From the sequence record MN850574.1: a DNA stretch of 64,000 nucleotides. The stretch is one strand, 5' to 3'. The translations under genes and the position numbers were made by a program. The notes beneath the pieces were generated by a model that made no database searches, was not told the origin of the DNA, and saw nothing but the letters and a program-made list of their open reading frames with translations. Origin of the DNA: Escherichia phage kaaroe. Below are positions 23,363-34,197 of the stretch, piece by piece. Every line of letters starts with the position of its first letter. Positions within the stretch are counted from its first letter, which is position 1.

Positions 23363-24103
23363 TCAAAAATCGGCGAAAGGTGAACCCTTGCCATTAATAG
23401 GATCAAATGGGTCAATAAAATCTTGTCCTTCGCTTCTGAATTGCTTATCTTCTTTGTACTGATCTAGGTTGATATCTGTTAACCCGTCCAGATTAGTGAT
23501 CGGTGCAAGATCCAGATCCGCAAACTCATCAACATTAATTCCCTCATTGCGTTGTAATTCTGGTCGCAATTCCTCACCGCTATACACGAATTTCTCTGCA
23601 ATAATTTTACGCATGGCATTTTTGCCAGCCTGAAAAAACGGCTGATATGGCTCAACGTAATTAATTTCAAATAAATCATTACTCATCGGAATATAAATTA
23701 AGTCACCTGATTTTGGCTCTTGATCATCTACTTGATGTTTGAATAGGTTGGGGTTAACCGTAAAAGTTAATTCATCATTAGCTTGATACCCGAAACTAGA
23801 GAAGAAATTACCCGCTCCTTCATACCCATCAAATGAGTTAATATACGCCGCAAATTTCCATGCTTTAGTAAATTTGCTTTGAACATCCTCACCAAAGATC
23901 ATATCTGGCTTGACAAATTCACGAGGGATGTAATATAATTCTACACCTCGCATCTGAATAGCTTCGGCGACCATAACGTCGGCTAACGTCTGAGTATTTG
24001 TATATTTGTGAAAGTTCACATAAGGATTAAGAATCTCTGTTTGTCGTGTATTCTCATAATCCTTTTGCGATTCAAGGCGAGCAAAAAGAGTGTTGTTAAA
24101 CAT
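23363..24103 (-). CDS. 14: neck protein gp14
   Basis: 246 aa, synteny 13-14-15. Confidence 0.8.
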
Positions 24104-24139
24104 ATGTTACTCCAAATGGGGGAATACTCCCCCAATAAA

Positions 24140-25072
24140 TCAAATCATGAGGATGCCAAACGGAGGATCTAATAATTCTAGTTCTTGTCGCAATTTCTCA
24201 ATGTCGGCGCGTGCTTCTTCAATGATTCGGATACCATCAACAGTGACACCGCCGGGTAATTGCAGACCTTGATGTTTAGCCATGATAGACCCCCACACCT
24301 CCTTAGTGAAAGCGGTTGCCATGTCTTTAACCCAACGGTTATTATATGCGCCCTGCTTGTTCTCACTGATCGGTCCCATGCCAGCAACAATCCCGCTTAA
24401 ACCAGCAGTTGGATTATCATAAACGGCGCTAATCCCTCCAGCGGTAGAACATCCTCCAGCATGAGCATAACCAGCAACCGCGCCGATCATATCAGGAACG
24501 TCTACATAGCTTTTAACATATAATTCAACAACAATGAGATCACCTTCTCGGAAGTTTCCTGTTATCTTAAGTTGTCCGTTTGCGCTGTTATACCAATAAT
24601 CTGGCAGCGGATTGAGCATATTTTGCATAGTGGCTCGATAGCTCATAAGCTGTTCGAAATATCCTAGATCACCACCCATTGCATTTGGACCATAAAATTT
24701 ACTACAGCCAGATCCTAAACCGCCATTTACACCAGCTAAACCCAACAGAAAGTCAGTAAACCACGGATAAACGGCAGTACCATCCATCGTAGCCGCGCTA
24801 CCTACGTTTGTTCGAATTATTTTAGTTACTGCGAATACTCCAGAATCGCTTAAATCAAATACCCCGTGTTGCGCTTGCTCGGCACTAACACGAAATACTT
24901 TATATCCTTTATTCACACCATCGAAATGATATTCCCCATAGAGTTCTAATGCTCTCTGAATACAATCGTAAATCTGGTCTTCTGTTACTTCTACGTTAAT
25001 TACTGGTGCGCCTAAACGACGCAGAATAGCGTCTTTTAATTCTCTTGGGTTATTGGTTACATATCCTGACAT
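24140..25072 (-). CDS. 13: neck protein gp13
   Basis: 310 aa, synteny. Confidence 0.8.
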
Positions 25073-25118: not shown

Positions 25119-26888
25119 TTATACCGGAGAAATCCCAAAGAGGAACTCTTTAATTTGTACTGGCTGTGCTACTGCTTCGGCAGATACACCCTTAATACGG
25201 ATGTTAATCTGATCTCCCGTTTCAATATTTAGGAAAGCACTGGTAGAATAGCTGATCAATTCGTCTGTTCCGTAATGACCATTTTTCGCTTCATGTACCA
25301 TCTGTCCATTTTTGAAAATCGCAACAATGAATGTTGCATTATGTTGAGCTTGTACATCACAACGGAATACACAACGGAATAAACCTTTGTCCTGAACGGT
25401 AACAACAGATTCACTTTTCACCATTTGACGCGCATTAACTTCTTCCGCCATGTCGTTAAGCGGAATCGGTTTATAAACATCCTGTTCGTCCAGTTCAACC
25501 GTAATATCTGCGGTATTTTTAAATGCTCCAGCAGCATATGCAACTTGCACCCATTCTCCGCGCTTACGCAGATAATGGAAGCCGTCATCAGGTACATCAT
25601 CTACTTTGTTTCCGTTAGATGTTTGTAGCTCTTTGACGATTTTAATCACGCCTTTCTGAGTAAATGGATCTTCTGAACCATCATCGCCATAGATATCACT
25701 TGATAGTTTAATAACGCCAGCGGTCAAACCTGATTCGCGATCACCTACAATCTGTTCCATGTCCTGTACGCTTGCTTCTAACCGACCCTGAGTGTTTTCT
25801 ACAACTTTAATACGTCCGGCTAGAGTATGTCGATCGCTGTCAGTGCCAATCTCATTGGAAAGTCGAACAACTTCACCGCGCAAACCGTCAGCACCGCTTA
25901 CACCAACAACCTGTTTAAGATCTAAAAATTCTCGCTCTGTGTTGGTTAATCGATAGTCAATGCTTCCAGCCGATTGAGGCGTTCCGATCTTATTCTCGAC
26001 AGCCAGAAGACGAGGACGAATACCGGAATCTACACCATTAACATCATTGTTTAGACGTTCATAATTAGTTCCCAGCGTAGTGACTTTAGTCCCGATATCA
26101 GGGATTGAATCAAACAAAATTGCTTTCTTGACTTCTAGAACTTCGTTTGATAAGTTAGCAATGTTTCTTGAGTTGGTGCGGAGACGAACATACACATTTT
26201 CTTGTGTTGCAAGAGACGTGTCGCCGATCTCACTGCGCATTTTGTTAACTTGTTTTGTTAACTCGCCTACGTCAGAATCTTGCCAGTCGTTTTCAAGCTG
26301 AATGATTCGGCGACCGTGGTCATTTAATGCTGCGGTATTCTGAATAACTCGGTATTTGATACCAGAACCGGAACTGCCAGCATCAGGGGAACCATTGATA
26401 TTAAAGTTAGGATAAGAACCCATTTCTTGTTTGATGAAAGAAATGTCATCATAGATTGTTCTTGTGCTAGGATCGGCAGCGGGGCGATCACCAATCTTGA
26501 TGTTAAGTTCTGATACAGCGTCTACCGTTGTTTGTAGAGTTCTTGCTGTTTCTCCTAAGTTATCTTCGACGGATTCAACTTTTGCGACAGTCTGGTTAAC
26601 CACATCAATGATACTTCCGTCAGAAATTACCCCTAAAGTTGTTTTAATATCGTTAACCGCCGTTACAACCTCGTTAACTTTAGCGACGGTTGATTTTGCG
26701 TTTTCGTTTACGCGTGCAACGTTTTCTTGAATTGCAACCGGGGCGCGGTTAAGCGTCCCGTCATTGCCAGTCTGTGTCGTTGCTGCGCTTAAACATTCGC
26801 CATTCTTGATCCAGTTAATACGGTGCTGTCCTTCGCTTGGTACACCGTCAACATGTGGGATCTCGTGGATGTTTAATTGTTCAATCAT
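25119..26888 (-). CDS. wac: fibritin (whisker) Wac with C-terminal extension beyond foldon-like segment
   Basis: N-terminus HVDGVPSEGQHRINWIKNGE matches T4 fibritin; foldon-like DGFHYLRKRGEWVQV followed by about 140 extra residues. Confidence 0.8.
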   Translation of the reverse strand: MIEQLNIHEIPHVDGVPSEGQHRINWIKNGECLSAATTQTGNDGTLNRAPVAIQENVARVNENAKSTVAKVNEVVTAVNDIKTTLGVISDGSIIDVVNQTVAKVESVEDNLGETARTLQTTVDAVSELNIKIGDRPAADPSTRTIYDDISFIKQEMGSYPNFNINGSPDAGSSGSGIKYRVIQNTAALNDHGRRIIQLENDWQDSDVGELTKQVNKMRSEIGDTSLATQENVYVRLRTNSRNIANLSNEVLEVKKAILFDSIPDIGTKVTTLGTNYERLNNDVNGVDSGIRPRLLAVENKIGTPQSAGSIDYRLTNTEREFLDLKQVVGVSGADGLRGEVVRLSNEIGTDSDRHTLAGRIKVVENTQGRLEASVQDMEQIVGDRESGLTAGVIKLSSDIYGDDGSEDPFTQKGVIKIVKELQTSNGNKVDDVPDDGFHYLRKRGEWVQVAYAAGAFKNTADITVELDEQDVYKPIPLNDMAEEVNARQMVKSESVVTVQDKGLFRCVFRCDVQAQHNATFIVAIFKNGQMVHEAKNGHYGTDELISYSTSAFLNIETGDQINIRIKGVSAEAVAQPVQIKEFLFGISPV

Positions 26889-28288
26889 TAGCGCACCCTT
26901 ATGATATAGTTTAATGCCAGACTCTTGACGCGAGTCTCGTTAGCCGTTCTTACGGATCTTCCTGAATCAAAGTTAACAGTAGAACCCCAATCATCACCAC
27001 CACCGTTTTTATAGTTCGTGCTCCATTGACCGCGCTGTGCAGTAAATGCGCCACCATACCAACCGCGCCAGCGGTCAGCTACAGGGAATTTACCAGTAAT
27101 TCTCTGCATTGCGTCTTCTTGATAAGAACCAAATCGACGACCTGGATCAAGGTTTCTTCCATGATCGCAACCACGAGCAACTAAACCGCGCATATCAGGA
27201 AGATTAAAATTGTCACCTGAACCACCAAAGGTATAACCAATCGCAGAAAATAATTGCGGATATTGATTTTTATTCAGTGAACGACCATTACAGATCAGAA
27301 AGTCACCTCGGTCGGCATTGAATCCAGAAAGGATAATACCACCAATTGGCATTGCGTGATTCGCTAATTCATTTTTAGTAACAAACTGGTTGCCGTCTGA
27401 GTTTGAACCTTTATAGACGTTTCCGCTTACCGTACCGCCAGTGCTAGGAAGAACCTTAGCATTTGCTGATAGTGCAGCGTTAGCCTCACTTCCTACGGTG
27501 TCTCGTAGTTTAACAATGCCGTATTGAGACGTTGTTGCCTTAGTGCTTGCAAACTTCTTAGCAGAAACAACTACAGTATCATCTGAACCAGCATTCATCT
27601 GTGACTGGCTGGCGATCTTAACAGTACCCGCCTGATTCTCATTGGCGCGAGCATTTGCAAATGCATAAGGGCTAATTGCAAAACCTTCTCGAATCTGGCC
27701 TTGTAAAACCTGCGCATTAGTTGCTAACTGAACTAAACCCTGTGCGCTTTCGGTTGCTGTGTTTTGATCTGGAATTAATCCCGGCACAATCTGTGCAATG
27801 GCAGTGTGCATCTTTTTCGGTGTTACTGCCATTGTGTCATCGCTGCCAATCTTTGCCGCCTCAAGAGAACATATCTTAATAGTCCCCTGAACGCTCTCTG
27901 ACGCCTTTTTAGTGGTGAAGTAATGGTTTAGTGTGTCTGGACCGATTGCCATGTTCTCGTTGCTCTCTTGCAGCGATTCTTCCATCGTGGCAAATCGGGT
28001 AATGCCTTTTACTTCTTTTGTAGCATCTGGACGTGACATTTTAACAGCTAGTGTTTTTGGAGTCACGATCTTATTGTCTACAGTGCCGTCGTTTACTTCT
28101 TCCTGAGTTGCGATTGCAGCGATCCCGGCTGTATCTTCCGTAGCGTCCGGTAATCCATTTACGGCAAAGCCATTAATAGCGGCTAAAGCCGCTTGTACGT
28201 TGGTAATGCTTTGAGGCCAATCATTTACAGGGTTAAACTTGACGTATTGAGCATCGTCTTTTACATGGTTAATAGTATTGTTTGCCAT
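26888..28288 (-). CDS. 12: short tail fiber gp12
   Basis: 466 aa, repeat-rich, C-terminal region with conserved Gly/His/Cys pattern; synteny wac-12-11. Confidence 0.8.
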   Translation of the reverse strand: MANNTINHVKDDAQYVKFNPVNDWPQSITNVQAALAAINGFAVNGLPDATEDTAGIAAIATQEEVNDGTVDNKIVTPKTLAVKMSRPDATKEVKGITRFATMEESLQESNENMAIGPDTLNHYFTTKKASESVQGTIKICSLEAAKIGSDDTMAVTPKKMHTAIAQIVPGLIPDQNTATESAQGLVQLATNAQVLQGQIREGFAISPYAFANARANENQAGTVKIASQSQMNAGSDDTVVVSAKKFASTKATTSQYGIVKLRDTVGSEANAALSANAKVLPSTGGTVSGNVYKGSNSDGNQFVTKNELANHAMPIGGIILSGFNADRGDFLICNGRSLNKNQYPQLFSAIGYTFGGSGDNFNLPDMRGLVARGCDHGRNLDPGRRFGSYQEDAMQRITGKFPVADRWRGWYGGAFTAQRGQWSTNYKNGGGDDWGSTVNFDSGRSVRTANETRVKSLALNYIIRVR

Positions 28289-28945: not shown

Positions 28946-30748
28946 TTAACCTACCCTTAGCCAACGATAGACAGTTCTGTATGGAGGAAGAATACCCATC
29001 ATTGATGGATCGGTATTTCCCTGATTAACCTTAACATTATCTTCTCGATATTTGGTAAACGCTGGACCTACTGCATCAGGGTCTACCTGACAACCACCGA
29101 TAATAATATTTCCGTTATCATCTTTTACAAGAACTCGATCGTTGCTCTGTAATTCAGGAATCATATTTTTCTTGATCTGGTATGCAACATCACCACCGTT
29201 ACCACCTGCGGTGTGTGTAGGTTGACCATGTGTATCAAGATCGTTGTTGTTTAGTGCGAAGTTTTGATCGCTTGCGTCAGAAGACCAACCAGCCAGAAAT
29301 TCTCCTTCCGCATAACGTACCCATGTACCAATTCCCATATATGTCGCCGGGTTAGCTGGGTTATGCGCGTTTTCATAAATTGTGCCTATAGGATGGAAAA
29401 TATCAAAGATGGAATAGATATCCATCACACGACCTGTATAATCTTCCATTGGGCGTTTAGTTGCTTGGCTTGGATTCTGGAAATCGGTATATTCAATTCG
29501 ATTTGTCAGAGTAACTTCATCTTCGTTATTAAGATAGATTTTATCTGCTTTTTCTTTAATACCGCCTACACCGTCCCATTCCATTAATGTTCCGATATCA
29601 TTATTAAACCAGCGAATTGTGATAGTGTCTCTGTTATCTAGTGCTTTAGATAATTTAATACCAGTCACCACGCTGTTTTCGTCAAACATTAATGAATAAT
29701 CTTCACCAGATTCCACCCATTGACCGCCAGCAAGTACGCAGGTTTCTTCCGTTTCACCGTCAGCACCTTCACAAATAAAGGAAGGTAAATCCGCATCACC
29801 CGCTTTAATCATTTGTGTGCCGTTGATCAGCAATTCAAATGAATTTGGATTAATAAGATCTCGCTTACTTACGCCTAATTCAGCATTAGTAAACTCTTTC
29901 TTATTAGCAAGTTCACCGACCCAAACTTCACCTGGGATGGATTCCAAAGTGGTTATTCCTGTTTCATAAACGCGGATTGTATGAGTAATATAGCTTGACC
30001 GGAAGGATGCGATACCGTCCATATAAGTGATGATTTGAATGGTATCACCCGCCGAACAAGGGAAGCGTAATTTAATGCTTTTACCGTCCAGAGGAACAAT
30101 ATCACCGTTTTCACCGATTGAACCATAGTTAGAATCATCGGTTAAATCCTTGCCATAATAAAGCAAGTTACCGCGATAATACACTTCAACATTTCGAATA
30201 TTGTAAGTATTGGAACCAAACACATTAGGGAAGTCTGTTTGTCCTTCGGTTGCAATATAAACTTCCTTAGCGACTGTGCTTAAATCGGAAGTGGTGATAG
30301 TATCTACTCGTTTATTTTCGACATATTCCCAACGTCCGGGCGCACAATAAACCAATTCAACATCCATGAAATCTTTATACAACTCACGGTCGATTGGAGA
30401 TCCCTTAATGGTATCACCTTGTGCTGGCTTCAACGTTACGTTATGTGCAGCCCATGAGCGCCAAACATCACGAAGTTTAATTGTTTTATTATAATCACTC
30501 GCGCTTCCTTTAGGCAATTCAACAGAAACAGCGTTGTTCGTTGTATTAATCGCCCATGCATCACCAAAATTTGGTTTTAATACTGGTTGTGTGTGAGTTT
30601 TCCACGCGCCGGATGCATGAGGGATATCACCATCCCCCAGCTTAGTATAAAGTTCAGAAAAGTTGTCATTAATCTTTTGACCGCCTTTTCTTAGATAATC
30701 ACCTGTACCGTCATCAACAACGTTACCGATATTAATTAATTGTTTCAT
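28946..30748 (-). CDS. 10: baseplate wedge protein gp10
   Basis: 600 aa, synteny and size. Confidence 0.85.
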   Translation of the reverse strand: MKQLINIGNVVDDGTGDYLRKGGQKINDNFSELYTKLGDGDIPHASGAWKTHTQPVLKPNFGDAWAINTTNNAVSVELPKGSASDYNKTIKLRDVWRSWAAHNVTLKPAQGDTIKGSPIDRELYKDFMDVELVYCAPGRWEYVENKRVDTITTSDLSTVAKEVYIATEGQTDFPNVFGSNTYNIRNVEVYYRGNLLYYGKDLTDDSNYGSIGENGDIVPLDGKSIKLRFPCSAGDTIQIITYMDGIASFRSSYITHTIRVYETGITTLESIPGEVWVGELANKKEFTNAELGVSKRDLINPNSFELLINGTQMIKAGDADLPSFICEGADGETEETCVLAGGQWVESGEDYSLMFDENSVVTGIKLSKALDNRDTITIRWFNNDIGTLMEWDGVGGIKEKADKIYLNNEDEVTLTNRIEYTDFQNPSQATKRPMEDYTGRVMDIYSIFDIFHPIGTIYENAHNPANPATYMGIGTWVRYAEGEFLAGWSSDASDQNFALNNNDLDTHGQPTHTAGGNGGDVAYQIKKNMIPELQSNDRVLVKDDNGNIIIGGCQVDPDAVGPAFTKYREDNVKVNQGNTDPSMMGILPPYRTVYRWLRVG

Positions 30749-31599
30749 GTAGCAACCCCGATTTTAATAGTGTCTACGGCTTTAACTGCTAAACGAATAT
30801 TTTCGCCAGTAGCCTTATACTCTGCATATACTTTATCGCCGGAACCGATGAAATAACGAACCGTGTATAGTTCATCTTCTGTCTTCTGCAAAACTGCATA
30901 TTCCGTCGCATAAACTTTTCCGGCTTTAGAATCAATCATCAGTAGCGTTTCACTTGAACGCATTTTTGAACCGGATGTATTGCTAGCGGTAGTTAATAAT
31001 TTGATGGAAACGTATTCTGTTTTTGCGGCAATAGCAACGTTTGTTGCTACTCCAGTTACGTTAACTGTTTTATCTAATGGCGTTGTTGTATCGGTAAACA
31101 TACTTTCGATACCCAATCGCCATGTTACGCGACTACCTTCAACGGCAGTACACCAAACAGTGACTTTTGAAAATGGTTGTGTTATTGTAGCATCACCGGA
31201 ATAACCGCTAATAGAATCACCTGCTTGAGTTCGAATATTGAGCGGTGTCGTCGTTGAAAGGCTACCGTTACTATTTATGAATACAACACCCTCGCCGACC
31301 TTTGCTTTAGGTAGAATAGCAATAAGTGCGCCTTGAGTTGTATCGATATCGTGTAGACTCCCAATCTCAACAGCGGAACCAGCGTAGCTTTGACGTGGAT
31401 GCTTCTGATAGTATCCGGTTGCATGAATAACCATTCTTCCCACGCCGTGGTCTACGTCTTTAAACCTCTGATCAGCAAATGCGTCATATATTGAATCAAA
31501 GTTATCGTTAATTTTATTACCGCCATCATATAAGATATCGCCAGTCGATGGATTGCCGACAGTACCTGTGTCTATTCTTTTCTTTGGAACTTGTGCCAT
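30745..31599 (-). CDS. 9: baseplate wedge / long tail fiber socket protein gp9
   Basis: 284 aa, synteny and size. Confidence 0.85.
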   Translation of the reverse strand: MAQVPKKRIDTGTVGNPSTGDILYDGGNKINDNFDSIYDAFADQRFKDVDHGVGRMVIHATGYYQKHPRQSYAGSAVEIGSLHDIDTTQGALIAILPKAKVGEGVVFINSNGSLSTTTPLNIRTQAGDSISGYSGDATITQPFSKVTVWCTAVEGSRVTWRLGIESMFTDTTTPLDKTVNVTGVATNVAIAAKTEYVSIKLLTTASNTSGSKMRSSETLLMIDSKAGKVYATEYAVLQKTEDELYTVRYFIGSGDKVYAEYKATGENIRLAVKAVDTIKIGVAT

Positions 31600-31674: not shown

Positions 31675-32514
31675 TTAAATGTCAAACAAATCTGAGAGCG
31701 TCCCAGACTCGCTTTCCTGTTTCGGTAAGGTAATCTCCTTACTTTCTTCTATTTGTTCGTTAGGACGTGATTTAGGCGCTTCTACGGCTTCTTTCTCGTA
31801 ATACCGAACCTCAACCACTTCTGTTAAAACGTTTGTACTATGCCATTCATCGCGATAGATTGATGTATCGATCCCACATCCGGCATAAGTCACCAAACCA
31901 GTTTGTTTGCTCCATTTTAGATATTTATTAGACTTCATGGTCCCGTCATAATAAGGTCTGCCGGAATAAGCAAAACCAGCGGAACCAGAAGGAACAATAA
32001 AATAACCTACATCGGCAAACTTCTGGCCTAATGTCATAACCTTAAATTCAAACTCACCGCCAGTGTACTCAAATACATCCTTTGTGTCGGTTGTATTGAT
32101 TTTCCCGAAGGGTGGATTGCTGATCACCACATCGAATTTTTCGTTTGACTCAAATTCGAATACATCGCTGGTGATCCATTCTGCCTCCGGTAATAGTCTC
32201 TTGCCAATACGCGCAAATTCTGGATTGAGTTCGACGCATACGATCTTTTCTGGCTTACAACGATGTAACATACAAAAAGATAAGCGACCGATCCCAGCAC
32301 AAAGATCTAATACTTTTCCTGTGCAATGTGCATCGATGGTAAAATCCCATGCAAGCCCTTCTGGGGTAAAGAATGCACCTGAACCGCCTAGACCATCGCC
32401 ATGATAGTTATTATAGCAAAATTCTTTTTCTTCATATGTCAATGGGCGATCTGAATTAATCAACTCCATCACCCGATCGTGTAATTTTTGTTCTTGTTTA
32501 GAAAGTCGTGCCAT
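31675..32514 (-). CDS. N6-adenine DNA methyltransferase, gamma-class (motif X FFTPEGL, motif I LDLCAGIGRL, motif IV NPPFG)
   Basis: motif order X-I-IV read directly from translation; inserted between gp9 and gp8. Confidence 0.75.
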   Translation of the reverse strand: MARLSKQEQKLHDRVMELINSDRPLTYEEKEFCYNNYHGDGLGGSGAFFTPEGLAWDFTIDAHCTGKVLDLCAGIGRLSFCMLHRCKPEKIVCVELNPEFARIGKRLLPEAEWITSDVFEFESNEKFDVVISNPPFGKINTTDTKDVFEYTGGEFEFKVMTLGQKFADVGYFIVPSGSAGFAYSGRPYYDGTMKSNKYLKWSKQTGLVTYAGCGIDTSIYRDEWHSTNVLTEVVEVRYYEKEAVEAPKSRPNEQIEESKEITLPKQESESGTLSDLFDI

Positions 32515-32846
32515 TATTTAACCTTTGCTGTGACGGTAACGCTATGTCCCAAATAAACATGAGACATAAAGAACACAAAGTTTTTAAATTGCGGATTCTT
32601 ACGAATCCATCGTTTCAATTTTCGAATGCAAGTTATACGATGGTCATAATTAGAATAACTAAATTCAATACCCTGTTTCATCATCTCGTGCATTTCTTCG
32701 TATGTGTGCCATTGGTTATCATGTTTACAAAACCAATGAGTACCATAGAGTTTAGGATCTTGTGCACGTAGACCATAGTAATGCTTTTGCATTGGGAACT
32801 TAGCTTTATTCATTGTGTAATGCAATTTAATATTTACGCGTGCCAT
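32514..32846 (-). CDS. hypothetical protein (110 aa), cassette gene 2
   Basis: stop overlaps methyltransferase ATG (TAATG), translational coupling. Confidence 0.5.
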   Translation of the reverse strand: MARVNIKLHYTMNKAKFPMQKHYYGLRAQDPKLYGTHWFCKHDNQWHTYEEMHEMMKQGIEFSYSNYDHRITCIRKLKRWIRKNPQFKNFVFFMSHVYLGHSVTVTAKVK

Positions 32847-33201: not shown

Positions 33202-34197
33202 TTAGAACTCAAACAATACAGAAACAAGTTCTGTTTGATCTAATGACCGAACGATAGGTTGTCGGTTTTCCATGTAGATCATTTCGCCTGAGTGTGGCTC
33301 TAAGTCTTGCGGTCGGTACTTATCTTTGACCGCTTTAACGTCTGGATCGCTAGGGCGTGCTTTCTTTTCCAATGGGTTAAGGATAATGCTTAACTGACGG
33401 AAACCAGTATTACCCACTAACGCGGTAGTTGGGAATTGCGCAGAGTCCATATAAGCCTGAAAACGCAAAGTTACTACTTTCAGCCGATAAAGCAGATTAT
33501 AGTCATTATACCAGGTGATCACATTGTCATAACCCCAACGCGCCGGATCTTGTCGCAGTTCATCGGGGAACGGTACAACAATATGTTCATTGGTGCAACG
33601 GTTGATCGCCGCATCAGGTGGAATTGTGTACAGATATTCCCAACGATACCCATCACCCATATCAATAGAATCGCCCTTTCCTACAGGTGGCGCAATTGAT
33701 TCATGAGTGGGGGTCCACTTTCCGCCCAACTTCAAACACTCTACTTTAGCGTCAATGCTTGAAATCGAGCAGTAACCGCGATCAGGAACATCGGTTACGC
33801 GATACACCATCCAGCCGCTACCAACATCAGTTCTGTTATATGGTGCTGAGTTGACAACAACAATGTCATTGATAAAGAATGTGCGCGGGTTATCCTGTCC
33901 GGTATCACCCCAATCTTTACGAGGGATAACCGCATCAAGAAGTGATTTGTTAATCTTAACCGCCCCCATCATATGGGTCCACATGTCAACAACACCAGCC
34001 GTTGAATCGGTCGGATAAGGTGGGGCAAAGCCCACCTCTTTTTCGTTTTCTGACCACGGCTCCGAACGTCCAAACGTTCCATAAATTGTAATTTGATTTG
34101 CCTCATCGCCTACAGAATTATAGAAATTCAGAAGTTTTTCCGTTCTGAATTTACTAGTAATGATTGAGCGATAGATCACACTATTTTCATTAGCCAT
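33202..34197 (-). CDS. 8: baseplate wedge protein gp8
   Basis: 331 aa, synteny and size. Confidence 0.85.
   Translation of the reverse strand: MANENSVIYRSIITSKFRTEKLLNFYNSVGDEANQITIYGTFGRSEPWSENEKEVGFAPPYPTDSTAGVVDMWTHMMGAVKINKSLLDAVIPRKDWGDTGQDNPRTFFINDIVVVNSAPYNRTDVGSGWMVYRVTDVPDRGYCSISSIDAKVECLKLGGKWTPTHESIAPPVGKGDSIDMGDGYRWEYLYTIPPDAAINRCTNEHIVVPFPDELRQDPARWGYDNVITWYNDYNLLYRLKVVTLRFQAYMDSAQFPTTALVGNTGFRQLSIILNPLEKKARPSDPDVKAVKDKYRPQDLEPHSGEMIYMENRQPIVRSLDQTELVSVLFEF

What the first reader, a model, noticed from the sequence alone, without database searches (positions are those of the whole stretch)
25122..25541. Fibritin carries about 140 extra residues after the foldon-like segment
Seen in sequence: after a foldon-like DGFHYLRKRGEWVQV, the protein continues with a beta-rich domain (...FRCVFRCDVQAQHNATFIVAIFKNGQMVHEAKNGHYGTDELISYS...). 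T4 fibritin ends at the foldon (from memory). Inference: an added C-terminal globular domain, possibly carbohydrate- or receptor-binding, displayed on the whiskers.
Basis: partly seen in the sequence, partly recalled or inferred. Interest (0 to 1): 0.4.

Follow-up and report, generated by a model that had tools for sequence, protein, structure and literature searches.

The report
C1q-like knob on phage whisker tips
The 140 extra residues are real and fold into a C1q/TNF-like knob at the tip of the neck whiskers of an RB49-like T4-type phage, but this enlarged fibritin C-terminus was already described as the "RB49 type", so only the fold assignment is a small addition.

Summary
The window comes from a Krischvirus, an RB49-like T4-type coliphage. 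Its wac (fibritin) gene lies at 25119..26888 on the minus strand and encodes 589 aa, flanked by gp12 and gp13. A foldon-like hairpin is retained at aa 426-449. It is followed by 140 more residues (aa 450-589, window 25122-25541), whereas T4 fibritin ends a few residues after its foldon.

The domain occurs only at fibritin C-termini. It is present in 57 Krischvirus records, in a few Serratia and Cronobacter T4-like phages, and in three uncultured lineages.

The feature is already in the literature. Letarov and Krisch (2013) list an "RB49-type" fibritin whose expanded C-terminus is needed for folding and trimerisation.

The best reading is a C-terminal trimerisation and folding nucleus that forms the distal head of the whisker. 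A binding role, for the long tail fibre knee or for an external ligand, is possible but not shown. Knob alleles do not co-vary with tail fibre alleles within the genus. Interest is low.

The parts
25119..26888 (-). wac gene: fibritin (neck whisker and collar protein), 589 aa plus stop
   Evidence: ORF. PHROG 1056 'fibritin neck whisker' E 2.6e-186 over aa 1-581. T4 fibritin 2bsg_A E 4e-50 over aa 6-427. 98.8% nucleotide identity to RB49 wac and 99.7% to phage kvi.
26739..26888 (-). N-terminal ~50 aa, the neck-attachment domain conserved with T4
   Evidence: Aligned to T4 fibritin from residue 5. It is the best-conserved region across lineages: 44-100% identity, against 32-99% for the shaft.
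25614..26738 (-). shaft (aa 51-425), homologous to the segmented coiled coil of T4 fibritin
   Evidence: Continuous alignment to T4 fibritin. dN/dS 0.05-0.10 for diverged pairs. It includes the equivalent of T4 helix alpha11, roughly aa 355-383 by my own reading of the alignment. In T4, alpha11 binds the gp35 kneecap (preprint 10.64898/2026.03.06.709160).
25542..25613 (-). foldon-like beta-hairpin segment (aa 426-449)
   Evidence: Pfam Fibritin_C above its gathering score. Profile hits to T4 foldon chains. Hairpin in the AF2 model.
25122..25541 (-). C-terminal C1q/TNF-like jelly-roll knob (aa 450-589): the flagged extension
25160..25491 (-). allelic patch inside the knob (aa ~466-577) that differs from phage ECD7 while the rest of the gene is at least 99% identical
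   Evidence: Window versus ECD7: 8 mismatches in the 1500 nt upstream of the patch, then about 71 mismatches in about 330 nt, then near-identity again. Over a slightly longer span (locus 1551-1987) ECD7 is 95.7% identical to MIZ5 and the window is about 81%.

Best explanation
The interval encodes the last 140 residues of an RB49-type fibritin (Wac). They fold into a C1q/TNF-like jelly-roll domain placed directly after a retained foldon-like hairpin, at the end of the fibre opposite the neck-binding N-terminus. The most likely mechanism has two parts. First, three copies of the domain associate into a knob that, together with the hairpin, registers the three chains and nucleates C-to-N zipping of the coiled-coil shaft. 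This is the job done by the 27-residue foldon alone in T4, and by C1q-like C-terminal domains in BclA, C1q and collagens VIII/X. Second, the knob then remains as the distal head of each whisker and collar fibre. Shown here: gene identity, domain boundaries, fold, distribution, purifying selection. Taken from the literature: the expanded C-terminus is required for folding of RB49 fibritin. Inferred: the trimeric state of the knob and its role as nucleus. A further binding role is open.
Against: No multimer prediction or coordinates were available, so trimerisation of the knob is inferred and not shown. The folding requirement rests on one review-style statement of partly unpublished biochemistry, and the primary 2005 paper could not be read. 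A 140-residue domain with raised dN/dS (0.18-0.46 against 0.05-0.10 in the shaft) and an exchanged allelic patch looks like more than a folding nucleus. The foldon-like hairpin is still well conserved in Krischvirus, which raises the question of why both modules are kept.
Confidence: 0.6

Rival explanations
1. Accessory adhesin. The knob is a lectin-like or receptor-binding head that lets the whiskers bind host surface glycans or other material. This would pre-concentrate the virion near cells, independently of the long and short tail fibres.
Against: No ligand, binding-site motif or experiment supports it. dN/dS stays well below 1. Within Krischvirus the knob is 75-100% identical, while the true adhesin-bearing fibre gp37 drops to 43% between genomes. 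The knob therefore does not behave like a host-range determinant. Fold similarity alone does not indicate binding.
Confidence: 0.2
2. Tail-fibre docking head (Letarov 2005 hypothesis). The knob contacts the knee region of the long tail fibre, specifically the enlarged gp36. It would hold fibres retracted or help attach them, so knob and gp36 have co-evolved.
For: Perfect co-occurrence in the listed hits. Every non-Krischvirus phage listed as carrying the knob (Serratia 92A1, WSPA, 4S, PS2, Muldoon, SP1; Cronobacter VP8) belongs to the set whose gp36 matches the extra C-terminal half of RB49 gp36 over at least 80% of its length (SP1 was not among the rows displayed). RB49 gp36 is 496 aa against 221 aa in T4. 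In T4 the whisker does bind the knee, and its C-terminal ~100 residues lie beyond that contact.
Against: The co-occurrence is confounded by common descent, because fibritin types track the gp23 tree. Within Krischvirus there is a double dissociation. ECD7 has a different knob allele (82%) with gp36 99.8% identical to RB49. Phage kvi has the RB49 and window knob (98.6-100%) with the gp36 C-end at 71-74%. In T4 the resolved contact is helix alpha11 with gp35, not the C-terminus with gp36.
Confidence: 0.2

Closest known systems
RB49-type fibritin (gpwac of phage RB49; Letarov et al. 2005; Letarov and Krisch 2013, PMC3797505)
   Same: It is essentially the same protein: 98.8% nucleotide identity over the gene and 98.6% amino-acid identity in the C-terminal 140 aa. 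The type is defined by an expanded C-terminal module unlike that of T4 and needed for folding.
   Different: The papers I could read call the RB49 C-terminus 'unrelated' to T4's. Here a foldon-like hairpin is clearly retained upstream of the new domain, and the domain is assigned to the C1q/TNF fold. I found no paper stating that fold.
T4 fibritin foldon (PDB 1rfo, 1aa0, 2bsg)
   Same: It sits at the C-terminal end of the same homologous fibre. The hairpin motif D-G-x-x-Y-[VL]-R-K-x-G-E-W-V is shared. Both have a presumed role as a C-terminal trimerisation nucleus.
   Different: T4 ends a few residues after the hairpin. Here a 140-residue jelly roll follows, and the foldon-like segment alone is reported to be insufficient for folding.
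BclA C-terminal domain / gC1q heads (C1q, Caprin-2, cerebellin, collagen VIII and X NC1) and TNF ligands
   Different: Sequence identity is only 8-20%. Pfam BclA_C and C1q scores fall below their gathering thresholds. The stalk is an alpha-helical coiled coil rather than collagen. No ligand is known.
TNF-like knobs of phage fibres (PRD1 P5, cyanophage A4 and A-1(L) tail fibres, TM4 gp23, Sf6 needle knob)
   Different: Those domains sit on tail or vertex fibres that contact the host. This one sits on neck whiskers, whose known T4 role is handling the phage's own long tail fibres.

Membership tests
T4-type fibritin (Wac) | Conserved ~50-aa N-terminal neck-binding domain | tested here: met
   Aligned to T4 fibritin from residue 5, and N-terminal fragments 1ox3 and 2ibl match at E ~2e-15. 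This region is 44-100% identical across all lineages compared.
T4-type fibritin (Wac) | Long shaft homologous to the segmented coiled coil; Pfam Fibritin_C above its gathering score | tested here: met
   E 4e-50 to T4 fibritin over aa 6-427. Fibritin_C scores 105.5 bits against a cut-off of 21. The heptad pattern itself was not computed.
T4-type fibritin (Wac) | Gene position between gp12 (short tail fibre) and gp13 (neck protein) | tested here: met
   Flanking ORFs match PHROG 910 (tail collar fibre, gp12 type) and PHROG 211 (adaptor, gp13). The same order is seen in L004, L005, L008 and L009.
T4-type fibritin (Wac) | Trimeric fibre forming collar and whiskers on the virion | not testable with these tools
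   This needs biochemistry or electron microscopy. It is reported for RB49 fibritin in PMC3797505.
RB49-type fibritin | C-terminal module homologous to that of RB49 gpwac | tested here: met
   98.6% amino-acid identity to the RB49 C-terminal 140 aa.
C1q/TNF-like jelly-roll superfamily | Compact jelly-roll beta-sandwich fold | tested here: met
C1q/TNF-like jelly-roll superfamily | Sequence membership of Pfam C1q (PF00386) or BclA_C (PF18573) | tested here: not met
   C1q scores 15.6 bits against a cut-off of 23.7. BclA_C scores 23.1 bits against a cut-off of 38. The best family member reaches E 4.3e-7 for BclA_C. The domain is related at fold or superfamily level only.
C1q/TNF-like jelly-roll superfamily | Assembly into a threefold-symmetric trimer | not testable with these tools
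   Only monomer prediction was available. Trimerisation is inferred from the trimeric fibre and from the family.
Phage receptor-binding knob domains | Binds a host-surface ligand | not testable with these tools

The most novel reading that the evidence does not exclude
The knob is a real ligand-binding head, so in RB49-like phages the six whiskers (and the collar fibres) act as a third set of adhesive fibres. They would bind a host or environmental glycan, with alleles exchanged between lineages independently of the tail fibres. This would be an accessory adsorption organelle at the neck of a T4-type virion.
Probability: 0.15. Interest if true: 0.5.

Novelty: already known. Interest (0 to 1): 0.2.

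Why it matters
The finding matters little as a discovery. The enlarged C-terminus of RB49-type fibritin has been in the literature since 2005. It gains some value as annotation. Assigning the module to the C1q/TNF fold gives a concrete structural rationale for its reported folding requirement, because C1q-like heads nucleate trimeric rods in BclA, C1q and collagens. It also gives a testable frame for the old question of why fibritin C-termini were swapped among T4-type lineages. The domain might also serve as an alternative, larger trimerisation tag to the T4 foldon.

Tried and rejected
1. The word-indexed protein search with the knob alone returned only two truncated 110-aa ORF calls, which was uninformative.
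2. The exhaustive HMMER search returned three hits. P0005 is a repetitive spurious match.
3. NCBIfam gave nothing. The precomputed Pfam tag PF28231 on two homologues turned out to be a faint STB2_C hit and is irrelevant.
4. The sequence profile against the PDB found only foldon-containing chains and nothing for the knob. The fold had to come from structure prediction.
5. The single-sequence AF2 model was too weak (pLDDT 57) and was not used for fold search.
6. I looked for allelic covariation between knob variants and gp34, gp35, gp36 and gp37 within Krischvirus. The result was negative.
7. I tried to read variability by secondary-structure element.
8. Phage Skers appeared to lack wac. The record lacks about 9.5 kb covering gp9 to gp16, which are essential genes. 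I therefore treat it as a probable assembly gap and not a natural wac deletion.
9. The primary paper, Letarov et al. 2005 (PMC545706), is not held.
10. A separate gene or overlapping ORF in the interval was rejected, because only mechanical ORFs of 52-67 aa are present.

Full report
**What is there**

The window is a piece of a Krischvirus genome, an RB49-like T4-type phage of E. coli.
- The flagged interval lies inside the ORF at 25119..26888 on the minus strand, which encodes 589 aa.
- The ORF is 99.7% identical in DNA to the fibritin gene of phage kvi and 98.8% identical to wac of RB49.
- It matches PHROG 1056 'fibritin neck whisker' end to end (E 2.6e-186).
- It aligns with T4 fibritin over residues 6-427 (E 4e-50).
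- It sits between the gp12 short tail fibre gene (26888..28288) and the gp13 neck gene (24140..25072).
- Residues 450-589 correspond exactly to window 25122-25541.

Pfam Fibritin_C matches residues 368-451 at 105 bits, against a cut-off of 21. The C-terminal 167 residues alone still pass that cut-off, matching the last 27 profile positions. The motif DVPDDGFHYLRKRGEWVQV aligns with the T4 foldon EAPRDGQAYVRKDGEWVFL. It is predicted as a beta-hairpin at aa 439-442 and 445-448. T4 fibritin is 487 residues long, and its foldon aligns to T4 residues 456-480, so T4 ends a few residues after the foldon. This protein continues for another 140 residues.

The extension is expressed coding sequence and not noise. 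It is 75-100% identical in 57 phage records. dN/dS is 0.18-0.46 among four genomes.

**What the extension is**

- Sequence methods give only hints. BclA_C scores E 7e-5 and C1q scores E 0.019, both below Pfam's thresholds. These hits recur in 6 of 10 relatives.
- A single-sequence AlphaFold model was poor (pLDDT 57).
- I therefore collected diverged relatives and predicted the structure from a 10-sequence alignment (A1). Mean pLDDT was 86.2, with 10-residue blocks of 84-96 through the knob. The strands fall at the same positions as in the single-sequence model.
- Foldseek on the PDB and on predicted viral structures agrees.

The domain is therefore a C1q/TNF-like jelly roll. By Pfam thresholds it is not a sequence-level member of the C1q or BclA_C families.

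**Distribution**

- An exhaustive HMMER pass over 1.84 billion cluster representatives found only two real clusters: the Krischvirus one, and P0004 at 30% identity.
- A full-length search added P0013.
- P0004 and P0013 come from uncultured T4-like contigs and sit in the same gp12-wac-gp13 position.
- BLAST from the window's knob finds only the 57 Krischvirus records among 50,697 phage records.
- The fibritin of Serratia phage 92A1 (591 aa) has the same foldon-plus-knob layout. It matches the family profile at 98.2% probability, E 3e-14.
- From 92A1, BLAST reaches Serratia phages WSPA, 4S, PS2, Muldoon and SP1 and Cronobacter phage VP8, always at the fibritin C-terminus.

The knob is thus a clade character of a group of 'pseudo-T-even' phages. 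It is not a general property of T4-like fibritins.

**What is already known**

Letarov and Krisch (2013, PMC3797505) classify fibritin C-termini into eight types and name an RB49 type. They state that only T4 and JS98 fibritins fold using the small foldon alone, whereas the others, RB49 included, need additional sequences in their expanded C-terminal domain. [quoted passage not shown] The primary 2005 paper is not held. I found no paper that names the C1q/TNF fold for this domain. The fold, and the clear retention of a foldon-like hairpin upstream of it, are small additions.

**How it probably works**

C1q-like heads at the C-terminus of trimeric rods act as the trimerisation nucleus in BclA, C1q and collagens VIII/X (established knowledge of those families). 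T4 fibritin itself folds from its C-terminal foldon. Taken with the reported folding requirement, the best-supported mechanism is that the knob trimerises, sets the chain register together with the hairpin, and nucleates the shaft. It then remains as the distal head. In P0013 the foldon motif has decayed to 17% identity while the knob remains, which fits this reading. Trimerisation of the knob is inferred, because no multimer prediction was possible.

**Does it also bind something?**

I tested the older idea that the fibritin C-terminus and gp36 at the tail-fibre knee co-evolve.
- Between clades the two characters co-occur. RB49 gp36 is 496 aa against 221 aa in T4, with extra repeated modules. 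Homologues covering at least 80% of its extra C-terminal half number 67 records. These are Krischvirus plus the Serratia and Cronobacter phages that also carry the knob.
- This is confounded by common descent, because fibritin types track the capsid-protein tree.
- Within Krischvirus the link fails in both directions. ECD7 has a different knob allele (82% identity) but gp34, gp35 and gp36 are 97.8%, 98.4% and 99.8% identical to RB49. Phage kvi has the same knob as the window, but the last 100 residues of its gp36 are 71-74% identical to RB49 and its gp37 is of a different type.
- A 2026 cryo-EM preprint on T4 places the whisker-to-fibre contact at helix alpha11 (fibritin 361-386), in a groove of the gp35 kneecap, and not at the foldon.
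- By my reading of the pairwise alignments, the alpha11-equivalent segment is present here. However, only two of the seven named groove residues of gp35 are conserved in RB49, at 25% overall identity. Whether that contact is kept is therefore inconclusive.

**Signals that the knob is more than scaffolding**

dN/dS in the knob is 2-5 times that of the shaft. Compared with ECD7, the window's wac is at least 99% identical except for a ~330-nt patch at aa 466-577 (window ~25160-25491). Over that region ECD7 is ~78% identical to the window and about 96% identical to MIZ5. This is an allelic exchange confined to the knob. Such patches are common in these genomes; gp34 shows several. The knob is also far less variable than the true adhesin fibre gp37, which drops to 43%. 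I therefore do not read this as evidence for receptor binding. The adhesin idea and the fibre-docking idea remain open at about 0.2 each, and neither excludes the folding role.

**Verdict**

The 'carbohydrate or receptor binding' part is untested. The feature is an already described property of RB49-type fibritins, so novelty is low and interest is about 0.2.

Noticed in passing
window 31675-32846 (-): Two extra genes sit between baseplate genes gp8 (33202..34197) and gp9 (30745..31599). One is a 279-aa DNA methyltransferase (PHROG 3820, E 1e-117). The other is a 110-aa protein of unknown function (PHROG 12630). Serratia phage 92A1 has gp8 directly followed by gp9.
   Followed up: partly
L001 2956-3420; L002 2969-3420; window 24103-24140: Phages MIZ5 and ECD7 carry a homing endonuclease gene (SegC in ECD7) between gp13 and gp14. 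The window has only a 36-nt gap there. The knob patch in ECD7 is not contiguous with this insertion, because gp13 in between is about 99% identical to the window.
   Followed up: partly
L007 (MW748999.1 1-16000): The record of Krischvirus phage vB_EcoM_Skers (154,769 bp) goes from gp8 and two small ORFs straight to the large terminase. It lacks gp9, 10, 11, 12, wac, 13, 14, 15 and 16, about 9.5 kb. These are essential genes, so this is probably an assembly gap.
   Followed up: partly
L006 25157-26647 (RB49 gp36): RB49 gp36 is 496 aa against 221 aa in T4. The extra length contains repeats of the T4-like motifs NKPxxAD and GDxMxGxL. Its last ~100 residues co-vary with the gp37 type: kvi and MIZ5 against RB49 and ECD7.
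   Followed up: partly
P0001 (110 aa, ENA contig of 50,312 bp): A gene caller produced a 110-aa ORF starting at the internal Met (aa 480) of the knob on a long contig. This suggests that wac is interrupted or frameshifted in that assembly.
   Followed up: no
BFVD hits A0A1J0MHA5 and A0A7S9SPP9: A free-standing 159-aa uncharacterised protein of Klebsiella phage KPV15 matches the hairpin-plus-knob model (TM 0.72-0.75, 23% identity). An unnamed 594-aa viral protein also matches (TM 0.80 on the query, 22% identity). Both are possible further homes of the module.
   Followed up: no
L006 23814-24953 (RB49 gp35) against L013 6688-7806 (T4 gp35): By my reading of the pairwise alignment, only R257 and Y259 of the seven T4 gp35 groove residues reported to face whisker helix alpha11 are conserved in RB49. 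On the whisker side, T4 N377, Q380, N381 and Q383 correspond to E, Q, D and E here. This is a shift to acidic residues that might be compensated on gp35 (E210 to L, Y299 to R).
   Followed up: partly
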